Shown in pieces: positions 8,857 to 19,623 of a stretch of DNA of 31,107 nt; the first letter of the stretch is position 1; each line of letters begins with the position of its first letter. The notes below the pieces were generated by a model that was given only the letters and a program-made list of their open reading frames with translations, was not told the origin of the DNA and searched no databases. Location of the stretch: the IMG/VR virus record IMGVR_UViG_2713896798_000014, one strand, 5' to 3'. Made by a program: the position numbers and the translations under genes. The stretch comes from a virus. Taxonomy: Duplodnaviria; Heunggongvirae; Uroviricota; Caudoviricetes.

Positions 8857-9455
8857 ACAGTTTAACGGCAAATAACCGTTTGTCGCAACAGCTGGTGGTC
8901 AGTGTCGCTGCACACCTGTTGTTACGGCATGAATGCAGATTACCAAATCACCTGGCTGTAAGTAACCACAGAGAACTTTACCTGACTGTGGGGGGCGAGT
9001 TGTGCAGGAACTTAACCGCTGGTTTCGTGACGGAAGAGGACTTTATGTTCATGTTATTCGTTGGGAGCCAGAAACACAGCGCGTTATCTATCTTCGCAAA
9101 GACTACCCGCATGAGTGCTTTAGTCCTTTGTGGAAATTCAGGCGTGATTTTGTTGAGTGTGAAGGACCACCAGCATATTGACTCTGCAATTCCGGGACGT
9201 TACACTGTTCAGGCACCTTATAAAGCGGGTGCCGGGATTGGCGTCCTGAAATTGTCAACGGCGATGTATGACGCGCCAGCGTCTTTTTTATCGTCCGCAT
9301 TTGCTCACATCCAGATTATGGTGGGCTGGGCGGGGGCACCGAAAGGTGCGCCGGTCTCCGTTGACGCCGGTTACGCCAACCCCGTCCAGTTCACCACCAG
9401 TGAAATTGGCGTTTCCGGTGGTGGAAGTTTTTCACTGTCAACGGAGGCTGCCATC
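8853..9455 (+). other. ambiguous coding segment (two competing frames, G6 tract at junction)
   Basis: Frame of 8853 stays open into the Rha gene but reads as low-complexity; a protein-like 59-codon ORF lies in the -1 frame (9002-9181, ...NRWFRDGRGLYVHVIRWEPETQRVIYLRKDYPHECF...); G6 run at 8990-8995 where the frames meet. Confidence 0.3.
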
Positions 9456-14026: not shown

Positions 14027-14398
14027 ATGCGTGATATTCAAATGGTTCTTGAACGTTGGGGGGCATGGGTGGCAAATAATCACGAGGATGTGGAATGGTC
14101 ATCTGTTGCTGCAGGTTTTAAGGGATTAATTCCTTCGAAAGTAAAATCCCGCCCGCAATGTAGCGATGACGATGGCCTGATCATTAGCTCTGCGATGACA
14201 GTTCTTAAGAAAAAGGAACCGTATCAATACGAATTACTGGAAATGTATTATGTGTATGGGGTTACATTACGGGCGTTGGGGGTAAAACTGGGGATATCAC
14301 TTAATCAGGTTGTTATCAGACTGCAGAAAGCTGAAGGGTTTATTGACGGTTGTCTGGCAATGTTGGGGGTATCTTTAGAAATTGATTGTTACATATAG
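14027..14398 (+). CDS. Q: late-gene antiterminator Q-like protein
   Basis: Position immediately upstream of the late region; GGAGA 6 nt upstream of ATG 14027; family assignment from recollection of Q-like sequences. Confidence 0.6.
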   Translation: MRDIQMVLERWGAWVANNHEDVEWSSVAAGFKGLIPSKVKSRPQCSDDDGLIISSAMTVLKKKEPYQYELLEMYYVYGVTLRALGVKLGISLNQVVIRLQKAEGFIDGCLAMLGVSLEIDCYI

Positions 14399-14431
14399 TA
14401 ATAAATTCAATCAAAGTAAATAATCATATTT

Positions 14432-14470
14432 TATAATAACCTCCTGATGATACCTGTTCATTGGGAGGTT
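14432..14470 (+). promoter_or_regulatory. consensus -10 (TATAAT) plus hairpin sequestering the downstream Shine-Dalgarno
   Basis: TATAAT at 14432-14437, 34 nt after the Q stop; perfect 7-bp inverted repeat AACCTCC (14438-14444)/GGAGGTT (14464-14470) whose 3' arm overlaps the GGGAGG ribosome-binding site. Confidence 0.4.
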
Positions 14471-14473
14471 ATT

Positions 14474-15091
14474 ATGGATAAAAATGTAGAGCATGTATTA
14501 GTTGATGCAATTGAAAATAAGCAATCTTTAACAGTCGTTTACTTAGGAGGGAGCCAGCCCGGAACATTAAGGAATATTTCTCCGATTAGTATAAATGGGG
14601 ATAAATTGCGGGCAAGATGCCATAGTTCTGGAGCAGTAAAGGTTTTCAATCTTGGGAAAATACAGTTACCCAGTGACTCCTGCGCGGTATCTATGCACTA
14701 TGGAGATTTAGAAGTTAAAGCTTATGAGACGATGCAGAGCGTAAATGACAACTTTCATGCCCTTTATCCTGAAGGACGATGGGGTGTTGATTTTAATGAG
14801 CATCGCTTTGCTTTATTTGATTTTTTTAAAAACGGGAAACGAAAAAAAACGGCATTTATGGCAATTGAGTTCAGGGAAAGAGATGAAGAGAAAATAATAA
14901 CAGGTGTAACAATTGATATTGGTATATCTGGAACAGTGATTTCTGAGAAGTCCCGAATCCCAAAAAGACGACCATGGGTAGTGGTTGGTCCCGAACACGG
15001 AGAATACAGTACTTATTCAACTTTGGACAAGGCTGCTACAGCGTTTTTTGAGAGGCTTTCGTTGATAGCATCCGGCCTGGAAGATAATTGA
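14474..15091 (+). CDS. hypothetical protein with N-terminal WYL-like domain (cargo gene)
   Basis: 205 aa; N-terminal LTVVYLGGSQPGTLRNISPISINGDKLRARCHSSGAVKVFNLGKI fits the WYL pattern as I recall it; visibly AT-rich; start at 14474 (GGGAGG + 5 nt) preferred over track ATG 14447. Confidence 0.55.
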   Translation: MDKNVEHVLVDAIENKQSLTVVYLGGSQPGTLRNISPISINGDKLRARCHSSGAVKVFNLGKIQLPSDSCAVSMHYGDLEVKAYETMQSVNDNFHALYPEGRWGVDFNEHRFALFDFFKNGKRKKTAFMAIEFRERDEEKIITGVTIDIGISGTVISEKSRIPKRRPWVVVGPEHGEYSTYSTLDKAATAFFERLSLIASGLEDN

Positions 15092-15224
15092 TTTTATGTT
15101 TGGTATTCAGAGTTCTCCGTGCTTAAGAAAGTCAAGATTCTAAAAATACTGAATGAGCTACTTGTGTTATAACAAAAATGCTATTAGTGTGTTAAGAGTG
15201 GTTACTTCGCCACACAACTTAAAC

Positions 15225-15245
15225 CCGCCGCTGAGCGGTTTTTTT
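15225..15245 (+). terminator. candidate weak rho-independent terminator
   Basis: Short GC stem (CCGC/GCGG) followed by T7 run. Confidence 0.35.
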
Positions 15246-15369
15246 GTACCTGTAAACCTGGTGCAGTACAGTAAACACGCTGGTGGTCGTGAATACTGGC
15301 TTTTTATCTTGCTGGCTTTTTAGACAAGAGTTATTGGTATGTCACGTTAACCGGAAAGGGTAAAAAGAC

Positions 15370-15567
15370 ATGCTGAAACAGCAGGATATGACAGAAACCG
15401 CCAGAGTTGTGTTTGATGAATTAAGCGTTACCGAACCGGCGACAGTCGGGGAGATTGCGCAGAATACTTACCTTTCACGCGAACGCTGCCAGTTAATACT
15501 GACCCAGCTTGTTATGGCGGGTCTGGCAGACTATCAGTGCGGTTGTTACAGACGCCTTCAGTCCTGA
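15370..15567 (+). CDS. small putative DNA-binding protein (winged-helix-like)
   Basis: 65 aa; segment ATVGEIAQNTYLSRERCQLILTQLVMAGL looks HTH-like; followed directly by a strong terminator. Confidence 0.45.
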   Translation: MLKQQDMTETARVVFDELSVTEPATVGEIAQNTYLSRERCQLILTQLVMAGLADYQCGCYRRLQS

Positions 15568-15635: not shown

Positions 15636-15666
15636 TTGATGATAATTTACCTTTTGGGGCTATAAT
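15636..15666 (+). promoter_or_regulatory. candidate promoter for the AraC-family gene
   Basis: Perfect TATAAT at 15661-15666, 36 nt before ATG 15702; weak -35 TTGATG with a long spacer; a G7 run lies just upstream (15601-15607). Confidence 0.35.
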
Positions 15667-15701: not shown

Positions 15702-16415
15702 ATGGCTGTTGTCTGTTCAGTTATCATGGTTTGCTCCCCAATTAATATTTTTCTTGAAAAGGATACGTTGTCACTTAAGCCAGGCTCAGTTGTTCTGGCC
15801 ACCAAATGCATCAGGGAGCTTTTCCTTATGCATTATGGCAAAGTTAAAATTGTCGATATAAGCGAATCCGTCGTAAGTCAATATCTGGAAAGTCAGCATA
15901 AGCTGACGAGGACTCGTCTGACTGACATTCCGCTTTACCTGTTGCTGGAACCCAACAATCCTGCGTTGGCTGCGGCTTTAATTACCAGCCAGGGATTTTC
16001 CGGAGAGGCCACGGATATGTTTCTTATGATGGCCTGCCTGTCTCTGTTTGAAACAGATGAACGGATGTCATTGTTTTTAAGTGGATGTTTATCCAGCATA
16101 AGTGCCAAAGTCAGGGCGATAATTCAGACAGATATATCAGCAAGCTGGACGCTTGGTGCGATTGCTCTACAGTTGCATATGAGTGAGAGTTTGTTAAAGA
16201 CAAAACTGAAAAATGAAGGGGGCATGTTCAGTCGCTTGTTGCTGGAAGAGCGGATGCGTGTTGCTGTAAATATGTTATGTTCCCGGCATGGATATGGACA
16301 GGCTATAGCAGAAAAATGCGGTTATTCAAGCAGGTCCTACTTTATTTCTGTATTTCACCGCTATTATGGCTTCCCGCCAGACAGATATGTATCCAGGCAA
16401 GGGCTTGATTATTGA
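15702..16415 (+). CDS. AraC/XylS-family transcriptional regulator
   Basis: C-terminal double HTH (WTLGAIALQLHMSESLLKTKLK...GYSSRSYFISVFHRYYGFPPDRY); AT-rich; start uncertain (15702 or 15828). Confidence 0.75.
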   Translation: MAVVCSVIMVCSPINIFLEKDTLSLKPGSVVLATKCIRELFLMHYGKVKIVDISESVVSQYLESQHKLTRTRLTDIPLYLLLEPNNPALAAALITSQGFSGEATDMFLMMACLSLFETDERMSLFLSGCLSSISAKVRAIIQTDISASWTLGAIALQLHMSESLLKTKLKNEGGMFSRLLLEERMRVAVNMLCSRHGYGQAIAEKCGYSSRSYFISVFHRYYGFPPDRYVSRQGLDY

Positions 16416-16443: not shown

Positions 16444-16519
16444 GGCCCTTTAGCTCAGTGGTGAGAGCGAGCGACTCATAATCGCCAGGTCGCTGGTTCA
16501 AATCCAGCAAGGGCCACCA
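16444..16519 (+). tRNA. tRNA with CAU anticodon (Ile2/Met-type, ileZ-like)
   Basis: 76 nt; acceptor stem GGCCCTT/AAGGGCC, anticodon loop CTCATAA, T-loop GGTTCAAATCC, 3' CCA. Confidence 0.8.
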
Positions 16520-16528
16520 TATTACATA

Positions 16529-16605
16529 CCGCTATTAGCTCATCGGGACAGAGCGCCAGCCTTCGAAGCTGGCTGCGCGGGGTTCAAGTCCCCGATGGCG
16601 GTCCA
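16529..16605 (+). tRNA. tRNA-Arg (anticodon UCG)
   Basis: 77 nt; anticodon stem CCAGC/GCTGG with loop CTTCGAA; T-loop GGTTCAAGTCC; 3' CCA. Confidence 0.8.
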
Positions 16606-16618
16606 TTATCAGCATCAT

Positions 16619-16695
16619 GCGTTGTTAGCTCAGTCGGACAGAGCAATTGCCTTCTAAGCAATCGGTCAGTGGTTAGACTCCACTACAACGCGCCA
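16619..16695 (+). tRNA. tRNA-Arg (anticodon UCU)
   Basis: 77 nt; anticodon stem ATTGC/GCAAT with loop CTTCTAA; 3' CCA. Confidence 0.8.
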
Positions 16696-16864: not shown

Positions 16865-17296
16865 ATGTTTGGAATCTTCAAAAAGAAAACCCGCAGAGCG
16901 GCAGCGGAAATTAAAAAGTTTGAGAAACGCGATCTGGCACAGGCGGTGATTAACGCTGCATACCTGGTGGCCTATGCAGATGGTGAATGCGAGGCATCCG
17001 AGAAAGCGAAGATCGAACAGGTCTTACGTAATCAGCCTGCGTTGTCTGCGTTTACCTCGGAAATTAATGCGATTAGCGCAACCATTATCGGTCAGCTGGA
17101 TACCAATTTTAAAATTGGTCGTCGTGCCGCGTTACGCGAGATTGAGGATGTGAAACACGATACGCGTGAAGCGGAAGATGTGCTGGATGTGGCGGTGGCC
17201 ATTGCGGAGGCAGACGGCGAAATTGAGCCGGAAGAGCGCAAGGTGCTGGAAGAGATTGCCGGTGTTCTGGGTCTTCGTCTGGAGAATCACCTGTGA
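16865..17296 (+). CDS. TerB-like domain protein
   Basis: Two repeats of the ...A.ADGE.E..E pattern (AAYLVAYADGECEASEKAKIEQVL; VAVAIAEADGEIEPEERKVLEEI); start at ATG 16865 with AGGAA upstream. Confidence 0.65.
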   Translation: MFGIFKKKTRRAAAEIKKFEKRDLAQAVINAAYLVAYADGECEASEKAKIEQVLRNQPALSAFTSEINAISATIIGQLDTNFKIGRRAALREIEDVKHDTREAEDVLDVAVAIAEADGEIEPEERKVLEEIAGVLGLRLENHL

Positions 17297-17460: not shown

Positions 17461-17772
17461 TTTTTTTATTTGCTGTTTATTAAAAACACTTCTGCATGGT
17501 GAATCCCCCTGTGCGGAGGGGCGATCAGCAACCAGGTATATGGGATAATCGCGGATTCAGGTGCTGATACTGAATTCACCGGGAGGCACCCGGCACCATG
17601 CTTTGCCACAAAAGTGTTGTTTCTGTTTTTCTCAAACTATCATCATTATCCCTTTATTTCCGGCTGCGCATGGCGTGGCTTTTTTTACGACCAGCCACTG
17701 GCAGATGGCCATCCTGTAATTTGATTCCGGTTCCGGCTTTTTAACTCTGTTCCTGTACACGGGAGAAATTCG

Positions 17773-19623
17773 ATGTCGATTAAACATTATGATGTTGTCA
17801 GGGCGGCGTCGCCGTCAGACCTTGCGGAAAAGCTGACACATAAACTGAAAGAGGGCTGGCAGCCGTTTGGTAGTCCGGTGGCCATAACCCCTTATACCCT
17901 GATGCAGGCGATTGCAGCAGAAGGTGATGTGGTGGTCAGTGGTGCAACTGAGCCGGAGTGGTACTACGTCATCGTACTGGCCGGGCAGTCCAATGCCATG
18001 GCTTACGGTGAAGGGCTTCCGCTGCCGGATTCATACGATGCTCCGGATCCGCGCATTAAACAGCTGGCGCGCCGCAGTACAGTGACGCCGGGTGGGGCTG
18101 CCTGCAGATATAACGATATTATTCCGGCCGACCATTGCCTGCATGATGTGCAGGATATGAGTACGCTGAATCATCCGAAGGCAGACCTGAGCAAAGGGCA
18201 GTACGGCTGTGTCGGCCAGGGGTTACATATTGCCAAAAAACTGCTCCCGTATATCCCGAATAACGCGGGGATCCTGCTGGTACCATGCTGTCGTGGTGGT
18301 TCGGCATTCACCCAGGGCGCGGAGGGGACATTCAGTGCGGACACGGGGGCCAGCCAGGATTCGGCGCGCTGGGGTGTGGGTAAACCGTTATATCAGGACC
18401 TGATTGCGCGCACCAAAGCTGCATTACAGAAGAACCCGAAAAATGTGTTGCTGGCGGTGTGCTGGATGCAGGGAGAGTTTGACATGAGCGCCGCCACCCA
18501 CGCACAGCAACCTGCGCTGTTTACAGCCATGCTGAAGCAGTTTCGTGCTGACCTCACTGTGTTTAACGCGCAGTGTCATGGTGGCAGTGCTGCAGATGTG
18601 CCGTGGATTTGTGGTGACACGACGTATTACTGGAAAAATACATACGCTACCCAGTACGACACCGTGTACGGCGGGTATAAAAACAGGGAGAGTGAGGGCG
18701 TTTATTTTGTGCCCTTCATGACAGACGGTAACGGCGTTAATACCGCCACTAACGCGCCGGCAGAAGATCCGGATATTCCGGCATCAGGATATTACGGTGC
18801 GGCATCGAGAACGAATGGAAACCAGGTATCATCAAACCGCCCGACACATTTCAGTTCATGGGCGCGCAGGAGCATTATTCCGGATCGTCTGGCAACCGCT
18901 ATTCTGAACGCAGCCGGGCGCACCTCAGCCTTCATCAGTGGTAAGGCACCGGAAATCAAACCCTCGCCCGGCGGCAACACGCCATCGGGTCCGTCTGCAG
19001 ATACGTCCGTTCGCACAATCTCCCTGCTGCCGGCAGCCGGAGAGGCTGCTGCGCAGGGCTGGAGCATTAAGGATGGCGGAATTCAGTTGTCAGATGGTGT
19101 ATTTAAGATCACCAAGCAGAGCAATAAAACCTGGTCCCTGACGCATCCGGTGGATGACGCAATTACCCTGCTGACACAGGGTGGCAGACTGAACTGTAAG
19201 TTCCGCCTGTCAGGCGCACTGACCAACAATCAGTTCGGGCTGGGGATTTATCTGTATACGGATGCTCCCGTTCCTGATGGTGTGGCGATGACGGGTACCG
19301 GTAATCCGTTCCTGATGTCGTACTTCACTCAGACCACTGACGGCAGAGTGAATCTGATGCATCACAGGAAAGCCGGAAACACGAAGCTGGGGGAGTTCGG
19401 CGATTACGGTAACGACTGGCAGACGCTGGAGCTGGTGTTCACCGCCGGCAGTGCCACGGTTACTCCGAAACTGAATGGAGTGGCTGGCCCGGCATTCCAG
19501 GTTATAAAAGACAGTCTGAAAGTGGGGCTGAATGCGCTGACGTTAACTGACATCACAAAAGGTGCCACGTACGGCGTTGAGATAGAAAGTCTGGTGCTGG
19601 AGATAAATACACTGGCAGCATAA
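17773..19623 (+). CDS. nanS: NanS-p-like sialate O-acetylesterase (DUF1737 N-terminus + SGNH/SASA-like domain)
   Basis: N-terminus MSIKHYDVVRAASPSDLAEKLTHKLKEGWQPFGSPV and esterase block VIVLAGQSNAMAYGE; GGGAGA 6 nt upstream; occupies the position of Stx-phage yjhS/nanS-p. Confidence 0.75.
   Translation: MSIKHYDVVRAASPSDLAEKLTHKLKEGWQPFGSPVAITPYTLMQAIAAEGDVVVSGATEPEWYYVIVLAGQSNAMAYGEGLPLPDSYDAPDPRIKQLARRSTVTPGGAACRYNDIIPADHCLHDVQDMSTLNHPKADLSKGQYGCVGQGLHIAKKLLPYIPNNAGILLVPCCRGGSAFTQGAEGTFSADTGASQDSARWGVGKPLYQDLIARTKAALQKNPKNVLLAVCWMQGEFDMSAATHAQQPALFTAMLKQFRADLTVFNAQCHGGSAADVPWICGDTTYYWKNTYATQYDTVYGGYKNRESEGVYFVPFMTDGNGVNTATNAPAEDPDIPASGYYGAASRTNGNQVSSNRPTHFSSWARRSIIPDRLATAILNAAGRTSAFISGKAPEIKPSPGGNTPSGPSADTSVRTISLLPAAGEAAAQGWSIKDGGIQLSDGVFKITKQSNKTWSLTHPVDDAITLLTQGGRLNCKFRLSGALTNNQFGLGIYLYTDAPVPDGVAMTGTGNPFLMSYFTQTTDGRVNLMHHRKAGNTKLGEFGDYGNDWQTLELVFTAGSATVTPKLNGVAGPAFQVIKDSLKVGLNALTLTDITKGATYGVEIESLVLEINTLAA

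What the first reader, a model, noticed from the sequence alone, without database searches (positions are those of the whole stretch)
14399..15245. Q-adjacent cargo gene encoding a WYL-like protein, with a hairpin that buries its own Shine-Dalgarno
Right after the Q stop there is a perfect TATAAT (14432-14437), then a perfect 7-bp inverted repeat whose 3' arm overlaps the GGGAGG ribosome-binding site of a 205-aa AT-rich ORF. Its N-terminus fits the WYL ligand-sensing pattern and the rest resembles nothing I recognise. A transcript starting just after the -10 would lack the 5' arm and be translatable, while read-through from upstream would fold the ribosome-binding site away. The Q-proximal slot in lambdoid phages is a known place for lysogen-expressed cargo, so this could be a lysogen-expressed defence or regulatory protein.
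Basis: partly seen in the sequence, partly recalled or inferred. Interest (0 to 1): 0.75.

Follow-up and report, generated by a model that had tools for sequence, protein, structure and literature searches.

The report
Prophage WYL gene behind RBS-hiding hairpin
An E. coli lambdoid prophage carries, right after its Q antiterminator gene, a conserved gene for a small WYL-type (probably single-stranded-DNA-sensing) protein with no DNA-binding domain, whose ribosome-binding site is locked in a 21-bp RNA hairpin on any transcript coming from upstream; it is a reasonable candidate for a lysogen-only accessory gene, but its function and its own promoter are untested.

Summary
The TATAAT, GGGAGG, ATG and 205-aa AT-rich ORF are at the stated coordinates. 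The "7-bp" repeat is the core of a 21-bp stem (14430-14450 / 14458-14478, -26 kcal/mol, z -5.6) that buries both the Shine-Dalgarno and the AUG. All four DNA-level mismatches are G·U pairs on the sense strand only, so it is an RNA structure.

A second allele (72% aa identity, dS 0.8) sits in the same slot in 22 other E. coli genomes and keeps the Shine-Dalgarno-sequestering stem. The protein is under purifying selection (dN/dS 0.23).

- **C-terminal domain:** an α-β5-α fold with no convincing known relative.
- **Absent:** no HTH and no WCX domain.

It belongs to an unnamed family of about 950 clusters that sit as single genes in prophage lysogeny modules and other mobile-element cargo slots.

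The best reading is IS10-style fold-back insulation. Read-through from the early operon cannot be translated, and only a transcript starting inside the 5' arm can be. The promoter, lysogen expression and any defence role remain unproven. The true late promoter most likely lies downstream of the gene, near 15162-15190.

The parts
14027..14398 (+). Antiterminator Q gene (123 aa, Q21/QuuD type). Its C-terminal half, from about 14189, is an allele found only together with the cargo gene.
   Evidence: PF06530 E 4.5e-48. Homology to other QuuD-type Q genes stops near 14188. The rest occurs only in the 51-52 genomes that carry the ORF.
14432..14437 (+). -10-like hexamer TATAAT, inside the 5' arm of the hairpin. 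Candidate own promoter of the cargo gene (unverified).
   Evidence: Sequence. Not more frequent than chance. No -35, so not called by the scan. It is TACAGT in the second allele.
14430..14450 (+). 5' arm of the leader hairpin; contains the anti-Shine-Dalgarno CCUCC (14440-14444).
   Evidence: Fold. 18 of 21 bases are identical in the second allele, while the intergenic DNA just upstream is only 50% identical.
14451..14457 (+). 7-nt loop.
14458..14478 (+). 3' arm of the hairpin; contains the Shine-Dalgarno GGGAGG (14463-14468) and the start codon (14474-14476).
14474..15091 (+). Cargo ORF, 205 aa. Member of an unnamed two-domain family of about 195 aa.
   Evidence: dN/dS 0.23 against the second allele. 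phrog_8498 over the full length.
14474..14665 (+). N-terminal WYL-like domain (aa 1-64): one helix plus a 5-stranded Sm/SH3-like barrel.
14732..15073 (+). C-terminal α-β5-α domain (aa 87-200) with a poorly predicted basic loop (aa 134-166, ...PKRRPW).
15092..15161 (+). 3' untranslated stretch, not conserved between the two alleles.
   Evidence: 27% identity.
15162..15190 (+). Putative cognate late promoter region (inferred): TTGTGT, 17 nt, TAGTGT, with the near-palindrome TTGTGTTATAACAAAA (15162-15177).
   Evidence: Conserved in both cargo-carrying alleles but not in prophages with other Q alleles. TAnnnT is kept in all relatives immediately before GTTAAGAGTGG. Palindrome I10.
15227..15246 (+). 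Intrinsic terminator shared by many lambdoid prophages. Likely tR', and also the end of the cargo mRNA.
   Evidence: Terminator scan. Conserved in mEp460, SfIV, SfII, Stx2a phages and about 890 E. coli genomes.
15279..15310 (+). Second terminator-like hairpin in the conserved segment.

Best explanation
This is a stand-alone accessory gene (a 'moron') nested between the prophage's Q antiterminator gene and, most likely, Q's own late promoter.

Regulation. Its leader forms a 21-bp RNA hairpin in which an anti-Shine-Dalgarno (CCUCC) and its flanks pair with the GGGAGG ribosome-binding site and the AUG. Any transcript that enters from upstream carries both arms and cannot be translated. In practice that means the early lytic operon that reads through Q. 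A -10-like hexamer lies inside the 5' arm. A transcript starting about 7 nt after it lacks the anti-Shine-Dalgarno and is translatable. The gene is therefore insulated from the phage's lytic transcription and is expressed, if at all, from its own weak promoter, for example in the lysogen. This is the logic of IS10 'fold-back inhibition'.

Protein. It has a WYL/Sm-like sensor domain closest to the ssDNA-binding WYL domains of DriD, CapW and BrxR, followed by an unrelated α/β domain. It has no DNA-binding HTH, so it cannot act as a WYL transcription factor. It most likely binds a nucleic-acid ligand and acts through protein contacts in a phage-host or phage-phage conflict role.

Shown: the gene, its selection, the WYL fold, the RNA hairpin and its conservation, and the family's link to mobile elements. 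Inferred: the promoter, lysogen-only expression, ligand binding and the biological role.
For: Hairpin:
- 21 bp, -27.3 kcal/mol, z -5.6; an outlier in the window.
- The sense strand folds at -26.1 and the antisense strand at -18.6 kcal/mol, because all 4 DNA mismatches are G·U in the sense RNA. Allele 2 shows the same asymmetry, -17.7 against -11.1.
- Shine-Dalgarno unpaired probability is 0.00 for upstream 5' ends and 0.32-0.47 for 5' ends just after the hexamer, in both alleles.
- Across dS 0.80, the hairpin stays 80% identical (5' arm 18/21), while the flanking non-coding DNA falls to 50% and 27%. Four of six stem substitutions keep the pair.
- No U-tract follows the stem, so it is not a terminator.

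Gene and protein:
- dN/dS 0.23.
- AF2 pLDDT 82.
- Family profile against DriD E 1.6e-4, with the shared motif Y-GGS-PG--RE--P.
- 32 of 71 members hit PF13280.
- No HTH in any library.

Family and context:
- 954 clusters, nearly all 187-210 aa.
- Members lie directly after a CI-like repressor (L016), after an integrase (L022), between the integrase and a LexA-type repressor in phage PY3, in terminase-portal cargo slots, and in toxin-antitoxin-rich arrays.

Position of the late promoter:
- In related prophages, reverse-oriented cargo abuts the Q stop with a 12-bp gap, so the late promoter cannot lie there.
- The element at 15162-15177 co-varies with Q's recognition region.

IS10 precedent: Davis, Simons and Kleckner 1985, as cited in PMC13181058.
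Against: - There are no transcript or protein data.
- The TATAAT has no -35 (best ATCAAA with a 16-nt spacer), is no more frequent than chance, and weakens to TACAGT in allele 2. The sequence upstream of it is not conserved.
- The conservation of the 5' arm could reflect the hairpin alone rather than a promoter.
- No double compensatory substitutions were seen, and only two alleles exist. All 51 E. coli copies of allele 1 are at least 99% identical.
- A distant homologue in a Spongiibacter phage has no such hairpin.
- Pfam WYL is below the gathering score and the W-Y-L tripeptide is absent.
- No known defence-system model matches.
- The late-promoter assignment at 15162-15190 is only a 6/12 consensus match and is inferred.
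Confidence: 0.5

Rival explanations
1. The TATAAT at 14432 is the phage's late promoter PR'. The ORF would then lie in the promoter-proximal leader between PR' and the terminator at 15227. It would be transcribed constitutively in lysogens, like lambda 6S RNA, and would also be the first gene of the Q-antiterminated late transcript.
For: The textbook Q cassette places PR' directly after the Q gene, followed by a sigma-dependent pause element and a terminator. The -10 is perfect. A -10-like GATGAT lies at 14446-14451, where a pause element would sit. The first intrinsic terminator downstream is at 15227-15246.
Against: - In related prophages with the same Q family, reverse-oriented cargo starts 12-36 bp after the Q stop, leaving no room for PR' there.
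- The DNA between the -35 position and the -10 is where phage 21 Q binds. Here it is only 50% identical with an 11-nt indel between two alleles whose Q recognition regions are identical.
- By contrast, an allele-specific element at 15162-15177 and a TAnnnT at 15185-15190 are conserved.
Confidence: 0.12
2. The hairpin is a processing or stability element rather than a promoter-linked switch. A 21-bp duplex is long enough to be an RNase III substrate. One possibility is that cleavage of the early read-through transcript activates translation of the ORF, as RNase III does for the lambda N leader. The gene would then be a lytic-phase gene, for example an ssDNA-binding counter-defence decoy against host WYL regulators. 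The other possibility is that cleavage simply trims and stabilises the 3' end of Q mRNA while destroying the downstream message.
For: The uninterrupted stem is 21 bp, about two helical turns, and lies 32 nt after the Q stop. The promoter evidence is weak. The host regulators CapW and DriD sense ssDNA through the same kind of domain, so a decoy role is conceivable. That RNase III needs about 20 bp, and the lambda N precedent, come from my own knowledge and were not tested here.
Against: Allele 2 interrupts the stem (11 + 3 bp core, -17.7 kcal/mol), which is shorter than a typical RNase III site yet still hides the Shine-Dalgarno. Family members sit in lysogeny modules next to repressors and integrases, which fits lysogen expression better than early lytic expression.
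Confidence: 0.2
3. The hairpin and hexamer have no regulatory role. The region would be a chance palindrome in AT-rich acquired DNA, or a DNA-level operator or recombination scar, and the gene would be an inert passenger.
For: TATAAT frequency equals the chance expectation. Promoter-like hits in the region are no more numerous than in shuffles. H-NS silencing of AT-rich islands is common (own knowledge, not tested).
Against: The energy is an outlier. The strand asymmetry caused by G·U pairs argues for RNA rather than DNA. The stem is conserved against decayed flanks. The ORF is under purifying selection.
Confidence: 0.05

Closest known systems
IS10/Tn10 'fold-back inhibition' (protection from external promoters; Davis, Simons and Kleckner 1985)
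   Same: An inverted repeat in transcripts that enter from outside pairs with the translation start region of the element's gene. Transcripts from the element's own promoter start inside or after the 5' arm and are translatable. Here the 5' arm holds the -10-like hexamer and the 3' arm holds the Shine-Dalgarno and AUG.
   Different: The setting is a prophage cargo gene at the end of the early operon, not a transposase. The own promoter is unverified. The stem is much longer and more stable. No antisense RNA partner is evident.
wHTH-WYL-WCX regulators (DriD, PafBC, CapW, BrxR)
   Different: There is no wHTH and no linker or three-helix bundle. The C-terminal domain is not detectably a WCX domain. 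The W-Y-L tripeptide is replaced (LRA; family consensus VRA). The protein is about 200 aa against about 300. It cannot bind promoters in the way those proteins do.
Lysogen-expressed prophage cargo with self-protection (lambda rexAB/sieB; BstA with its aba element; Tai/Ati of phi80)
   Same: These are single or small gene modules in prophage cargo slots. The problem addressed is comparable: keeping a lysogen-expressed function from interfering with the prophage's own lytic cycle. One family member lies directly after a CI-like repressor, as rexAB does.
   Different: No defence phenotype is known for this family. The insulation here would be translational, through an RNA hairpin, rather than a DNA anti-defence element or a late-expressed antidote.
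Cargo downstream of Q in Stx and other lambdoid phages (stx, tRNAs, nanS-p, nmpC/lc)
   Same: The neighbourhood is the same: Q, then the shared terminator segment, a small wHTH ORF, tRNAs and the nanS-like esterase.
   Different: stx lies downstream of PR'/tR' and depends on Q. This ORF most likely lies upstream of PR', between Q and its promoter, and so outside the late transcript.

Membership tests
WYL domain (Pfam PF13280) | Score at or above the Pfam gathering threshold | tested here: not met
   16.5 bits against a cut-off of 21.8, E 0.0085, aa 8-64. 32 of 71 family members reach E <= 0.01, best 1.2e-4. PADLOC WYL models give E 0.0014-0.0066.
WYL domain (Pfam PF13280) | Sm/SH3-like five-stranded barrel superposable on solved WYL domains | tested here: met
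WYL domain (Pfam PF13280) | Eponymous Trp-Tyr-Leu strand motif | tested here: not met
   The corresponding strand reads K-L-R-A-R-C; the family consensus is K-V-R-A-R-C.
WYL domain (Pfam PF13280) | Conserved ligand (ssDNA) contact residues | tested here: inconclusive
   S27, R33, K44, R46, K56 and K62 are invariant or nearly so. The GGS-PG--RE motif aligns to DriD.
wHTH-WYL-WCX transcription regulators (DriD/PafBC/CapW/BrxR) | N-terminal winged-helix DNA-binding domain | tested here: not met
   The WYL barrel starts at residue 19 after a single helix. No HTH hit in Pfam, NCBIfam, PHROGs or PADLOC.
wHTH-WYL-WCX transcription regulators (DriD/PafBC/CapW/BrxR) | C-terminal WCX dimerisation domain | tested here: not met
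Fold-back inhibition of translation (IS10 type) | Transcripts from upstream contain an inverted repeat that pairs with the ribosome-binding site or start codon | tested here: met
   Predicted Shine-Dalgarno unpaired probability is 0.00 and AUG 0.01-0.06 for 5' ends at 14380-14430. The Shine-Dalgarno is also at 0.00 in allele 2. These are computed values, not measured.
Fold-back inhibition of translation (IS10 type) | The gene's own promoter starts transcription within or after the 5' arm | tested here: inconclusive
   A -10-like hexamer lies in the 5' arm in both alleles (TATAAT / TACAGT). It has no -35, is not called by the scan, and no start-site data exist.
Fold-back inhibition of translation (IS10 type) | Measured loss of translation from read-through transcripts, relieved by 5'-arm mutations | not testable with these tools
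   Needs reporter fusions.
Q-dependent late promoter cassette (PR' + Q-binding element + pause element + tR') | Q-binding element between -35 and -10 that co-varies with the Q recognition helix (tested for the TATAAT at 14432) | tested here: not met
   Region 14399-14429 is 50% identical with an 11-nt indel between alleles whose Q recognition regions are identical. An allele-specific conserved element lies at 15162-15177 instead.
Intrinsic (Rho-independent) terminator | GC-rich stem followed by a U-tract | tested here: not met
   The stem is followed by GGAUAAAAAUG and is not listed by the terminator scan.
Known anti-phage defence systems (PADLOC-DB 2.0) | Match to a system-specific protein model | tested here: not met
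   Only generic Cas-associated WYL accessory models match, at E about 1e-3.
Described RNA families (Rfam 15) | Covariance-model match to the leader hairpin | tested here: not met
   No gathering-level hit. There are only sub-threshold plant miRNA-precursor matches, typical of any long hairpin.

The most novel reading that the evidence does not exclude
The roughly 195-aa HTH-less WYL proteins could be a new class of single-gene nucleic-acid sensors carried by mobile elements. In this reading the prophage copy is made only in the lysogen, because the RNA hairpin blocks its translation from lytic transcripts. There it would detect ssDNA or replication intermediates of an incoming phage and block that phage through its novel C-terminal domain. 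In some lineages a fused or adjacent 150-aa partner 'X' might take part. The opposite version is also open: the protein could soak up the ssDNA signal that host WYL regulators such as CapW and BrxR use to switch on CBASS or BREX.
Probability: 0.22. Interest if true: 0.72.

Novelty: new variant of a known kind. Interest (0 to 1): 0.45.

Why it matters
All WYL domains characterised so far work as ligand sensors attached to a DNA-binding or enzymatic output. A family of about 950 clusters that keeps the sensor but drops the HTH, and that travels as single-gene cargo in prophage lysogeny modules and other mobile elements, would be a different use of the domain. It is a concrete candidate for a defence or counter-defence function.

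The leader also gives a clean, testable natural example of how a prophage can place a gene inside its early operon yet keep it out of the lytic programme, by fold-back sequestration of the ribosome-binding site.

In addition, the cargo appears to be nested between Q and Q's cognate late promoter. If so, cargo, antiterminator allele and promoter are inherited as one block. This is useful for reading the mosaic Q-to-lysis region of Stx-like prophages.

Tried and rejected
**Searches with no useful result**
- Rfam at gathering and E-value thresholds: nothing for the hairpin.
- NCBIfam: no hit. PADLOC: only generic WYL models.
- BFVD Foldseek: nothing at E <= 1e-3. The afdb50 library was unavailable.
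- Literature searches for the protein accessions and the PHROG: no papers.

**Readings rejected**
- Intrinsic terminator: no U-tract.
- DNA palindrome or operator: all mismatches are G·U on the sense strand, giving -26.1 against -18.6 kcal/mol, and -17.7 against -11.1 in allele 2.
- Upstream in-frame ATG at 14447 as the start codon: it has no Shine-Dalgarno and is out of frame in allele 2 because of a 1-nt insertion.
- Translational coupling to Q: the Q stop is 32 nt before the stem.

**Leads that went nowhere**
- A conserved neighbour gene: none across the loci, except domain 'X' in three marine loci. X itself has no Pfam or PDB relative and is absent from the window.
- The same hairpin in a distant homologue: the Spongiibacter phage has none.
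- Other cargo in the same slot as known defence genes: no PADLOC or Pfam hits apart from one NA37 nucleoid-associated protein.
- Covariation: only two alleles exist and there are no double compensatory changes, so no covariance model was built.
Full report
**What is in the sequence**

The window is an E. coli lambdoid prophage. It is 100% identical over the finding to strain UTAK-6 and 99.5% identical to S88. Gene order around the finding is RusA, KilA-N, DUF968, Q, the ORF, a 65-aa winged-helix ORF, an AraC/YdeO-like regulator, three tRNAs, a TerB-domain ORF, a nanS-like esterase and then lysis genes.

Q (14027-14398) is a full-length PF06530 protein of the Q21/QuuD type (E 4.5e-48).

| Element | Coordinates |
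|---|---|
| TATAAT | 14432-14437 |
| AACCTCC | 14438-14444 |
| GGAGGTT | 14464-14470 |
| GGGAGG | 14463-14468 |
| ATG | 14474 |
| ORF end | 15091 |

PGAP calls the same ORF and names it either "WYL domain-containing protein" or "hypothetical protein". The ORF has 40% GC against 49% for the window and sits in an AT-rich island from about 14150 to 15350.

**The hairpin is larger than reported and is an RNA structure**

Folding 14425-14500 gives an uninterrupted 21-bp stem (14430-14450 with 14458-14478) and a 7-nt loop. Its energy is -27.3 kcal/mol against -12.2 +/- 2.7 for dinucleotide shuffles, z -5.6, with 0 of 200 shuffles as good. The stem covers the TATAAT, the Shine-Dalgarno and the AUG.

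Among 12,420 60-nt windows on both strands it ranks 43rd in raw energy although it is only 30% GC. Among the 1213 windows below 38% GC it is by far the most stable, at -26.9 against -19.6 for the next.

At the DNA level the arms match at 17 of 21 positions. All four mismatches become G·U pairs in the sense-strand RNA and C·A mismatches in the antisense strand. The sense strand therefore folds at -26.1 kcal/mol and the antisense strand at -18.6. This asymmetry argues against a DNA operator or cruciform and for a structure in the mRNA.

The hairpin is not a terminator, because no U-tract follows it. It matches no Rfam family.

**Does the switch logic hold?**

For transcripts with 5' ends at 14380-14438, the predicted probability that the Shine-Dalgarno is unpaired is 0.00. 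For 5' ends at 14444-14447, where a start from the TATAAT would fall, it is 0.32-0.44, and the local structure drops to about -9 kcal/mol.

The promoter itself is the weak link:
- TATAAT occurs 12 times in the window against 12.6 expected.
- The best -35 is ATCAAA with a 16-nt spacer (3/6).
- The consensus scan does not report the site.

**A second allele tests conservation**

A 72%-identical protein (P0002) is encoded in 21-22 other E. coli genomes. It again lies immediately after a Q gene and before the same downstream segment. Between the two alleles dS is 0.80 and dN/dS is 0.23. By region, dN/dS is 0.15 for the WYL domain, 0.23 for the C-terminal domain and 0.66 for the linker. The ORF is therefore a selected protein-coding gene.

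Non-coding DNA has decayed:

| Region | Identity between alleles |
|---|---|
| Intergenic DNA upstream of the stem | 50%, with an 11-nt indel |
| 3' untranslated stretch | 27% |
| Hairpin | 80% (5' arm 18/21) |

Four of the six substitutions in the stem keep the pair: U·G to U-A, G·U to G-C, A-U to G·U, and C-G to U·G. One or two break it.

In allele 2 the stem is shorter (11 + 3 bp core, -17.7 kcal/mol sense against -11.1 antisense). It still gives a Shine-Dalgarno unpaired probability of 0.00 for upstream 5' ends and 0.37-0.47 for 5' ends after the hexamer. The hexamer there is TACAGT, which keeps A2 and T6.

Sequestration of the Shine-Dalgarno is thus the conserved feature. Promoter conservation is only partial. 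There are no double compensatory changes, and all 51-52 copies of allele 1 are at least 99% identical. The covariation evidence is therefore suggestive, not decisive. A distant homologue in a Spongiibacter phage has no such hairpin, so the leader is specific to the E. coli Q-adjacent setting.

**Where the gene sits relative to the late promoter**

Homology to other prophages stops inside Q at about 14188 and resumes at about 15173-15190. The stretch in between comprises the C-terminal half of Q, the leader, the ORF and about 80 bp beyond it. It occurs only in the cargo-carrying genomes.

In related prophages the same interval holds other, uncharacterised cargo. This cargo is often reverse-oriented and begins only 12-36 bp after the Q stop. 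That leaves no room for a late promoter next to Q.

After the unconserved 3' stretch, both cargo alleles share TTGTGTTATAACAAAAA (15162 onward; a near-palindrome). A TAnnnT hexamer follows 17 bp later (TAGTGT 15185-15190; TAATCT in allele 2; TATTGT, TATCGT or TAATCT in relatives). Next comes the invariant GTTAAGAGTGG, and then a terminator at 15227-15246 that is shared with mEp460, SfII/SfIV, Stx2a phages and about 890 E. coli genomes.

The Q proteins of the two cargo alleles are 85% identical and have an identical putative recognition region (GISLNQVVIRLQKAEGF). That region differs from other QuuD-type Qs, whose prophages have CTAACGCGTACGC or TTAGCGCGGTCCGC in place of TTGTGTTATAAC. In phage 21 the Q-binding element lies between -35 and -10 of PR'.

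I therefore infer that PR' is at about 15162-15190 and tR' at 15227-15246. The cargo would be nested between Q and its cognate promoter. This is inference: the hexamers match the consensus at only 6/12.

Two consequences follow. Late transcripts would not include the ORF. Early read-through transcripts would include it, but in untranslatable form.

**The protein**

A single-sequence search finds only nine relatives. A profile of the full-length ones finds 93. An exhaustive HMM search finds 954 clusters at E <= 1e-3 and 191 at E <= 1e-30, almost all 187-210 aa with the same two-domain layout. None carries a Pfam annotation.

AlphaFold2 with a 71-sequence alignment gives a mean pLDDT of 82. It predicts an N-terminal helix plus a five-stranded barrel (aa 1-64), a disordered linker, and an α-β5-α C-terminal domain with a poorly predicted basic loop.

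Evidence on the N-terminal domain:
- The family profile matches DriD chains at E 1.6e-4 through the motif Y-GGS-PG--RE--P.
- 32 of 71 members hit PF13280 at E <= 0.01, although the window protein itself is below the gathering score at 16.5 against 21.8 bits.

The WYL call is therefore supported by fold and by family-level sequence evidence, though not by the curated Pfam threshold, and the W-Y-L tripeptide is absent.

In DriD and CapW the WYL domain binds ssDNA. A serine and several basic residues are conserved in this family, which makes nucleic-acid binding the most likely activity. This is untested.

**Genomic context of the family**

- L016/L017: directly after a CI-like repressor that diverges from a cro-like gene, which is the position of rexAB in lambda.
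- L022: directly after an integrase at the edge of an integrated element.
- Pseudoalteromonas temperate phage PY3: between the integrase and a LexA-type repressor, fused to an extra domain.
- L010, L023: in cargo clusters between terminase and portal or protease genes.
- L011, L013, L024: in arrays of short same-strand ORFs with toxin-antitoxin pairs.

There is no universally conserved neighbour. The extra domain 'X' of the PY3 protein is a separate adjacent gene in L015 and L024. X is itself an unannotated family of 285 proteins, and it is absent from this window.

The pattern is that of a single-gene accessory module of mobile elements, often placed where lysogen-expressed genes sit. This fits, but does not prove, a conflict function such as defence or exclusion. 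No known defence model matches, and no paper mentions the protein.

**Mechanism proposed and its rivals**

The best-supported reading (confidence about 0.5) is fold-back insulation of the kind described for IS10. Transcripts that enter from the early operon fold the ribosome-binding site away. Transcripts that start inside the 5' arm are translatable. The gene is then expressed only from its own promoter, most plausibly in the lysogen. The need for prophage-borne functions to be kept from harming the prophage's own lytic cycle has precedents in BstA/aba and Tai/Ati.

Rivals:
- The TATAAT is PR' itself (about 0.12). This is disfavoured by the reverse-cargo relatives and by the lack of conservation where a Q-binding element should be.
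- The stem is an RNase III or stability element, possibly activating lytic-phase expression of a counter-defence decoy (about 0.2). This is disfavoured by the interrupted stem of allele 2 and by the lysogeny-module contexts.
- Chance (about 0.05).

**Verdict**

The regulatory design is a new instance of a known principle. The protein is an HTH-less variant of a known sensor domain joined to an unrecognised domain, in a sizeable uncharacterised family. Interest is moderate: it is a good experimental candidate rather than a surprise.

Noticed in passing
window 15162-15190: The near-palindrome TTGTGTTATAACAAAA, followed 17 bp later by TAGTGT, is conserved only in the two cargo-carrying alleles. 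It co-varies with the Q recognition region, so it is probably the cognate late promoter and Q-binding site. Cargo, Q allele and promoter would then travel as one block.
   Followed up: partly
window 14399-15172 slot; loci L005-L008, L002-L004: The interval between Q and the shared terminator segment is a cargo hotspot. Other prophages hold unrelated, mostly reverse-oriented one- or two-gene modules there. Examples are a 404-aa protein with an NA37 nucleoid-associated protein, 182 + 308 aa, 149 + 313 aa, and a forward 141-aa ORF. None matches PADLOC or Pfam except NA37.
   Followed up: partly
L025 2006-3115 (Pseudoalteromonas phage vB_Psp_PY3); L015 768-1223; L024 3945-4535: In marine gammaproteobacteria the family module is fused to, or adjacent to, an unannotated domain 'X' of about 150 aa (285 relatives, no Pfam or PDB match). 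X is absent from the E. coli window.
   Followed up: partly
window 9213-9289 and 9314-9401: Rfam hits to the isrK Hfq-binding RNA and the C4 antisense RNA lie side by side. This is the P1/P7- and Gifsy-type antirepressor/anti-Q control module, here upstream in the same prophage.
   Followed up: no
window 17468-17645: A full-length STnc100 sRNA match (105 bits) lies just upstream of the 616-aa nanS-like esterase gene (17773-19623).
   Followed up: no
window 27841-28039: Rfam 'IS009' RNA match at 214 bits.
   Followed up: no
window 15702-16415 (promoter-like site 15639-15666): An AraC-family regulator resembling YdeO/GadX (NCBIfam YdeO E 4e-31, below cut-off) is preceded by the best sigma-70-like site in the region (ATGATA, 16 nt, TATAAT; 10/12). 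It is followed by tRNA-Met, tRNA-Arg and tRNA-Arg (16444-16695) and a TerB-domain ORF (16865-17296).
   Followed up: no
window 15370-15567: A 65-aa winged-helix ORF (phrog_331; weak TrmB/MarR-like hits) is conserved directly after the shared terminators in hundreds of lambdoid prophages. It would be the first gene of the late transcript. Its function is unknown.
   Followed up: no
E. coli SCPM-O-B-7615 (hit H172), equivalent to window 14189-14547: One genome keeps this Q allele and the leader, but the match ends at codon 25 of the ORF. The cargo gene there is truncated or interrupted.
   Followed up: no
window 14433-14460 (- strand) and 14447-14475 (+ strand): Because the leader is nearly palindromic, the scan reports 9/12 promoter-like sites in both directions. 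One points back into Q and could give a transcript antisense to Q. The number of such sites equals the shuffle expectation, so this is probably chance.
   Followed up: no
L011 and L013: Family members lie in long arrays of short same-strand ORFs with toxin-antitoxin pairs (ParE/Phd, HicAB), DUF4160/DUF2442 and HEPN genes, next to an integrase fragment. The arrays look like integron cassette arrays; attC sites were not searched.
   Followed up: no
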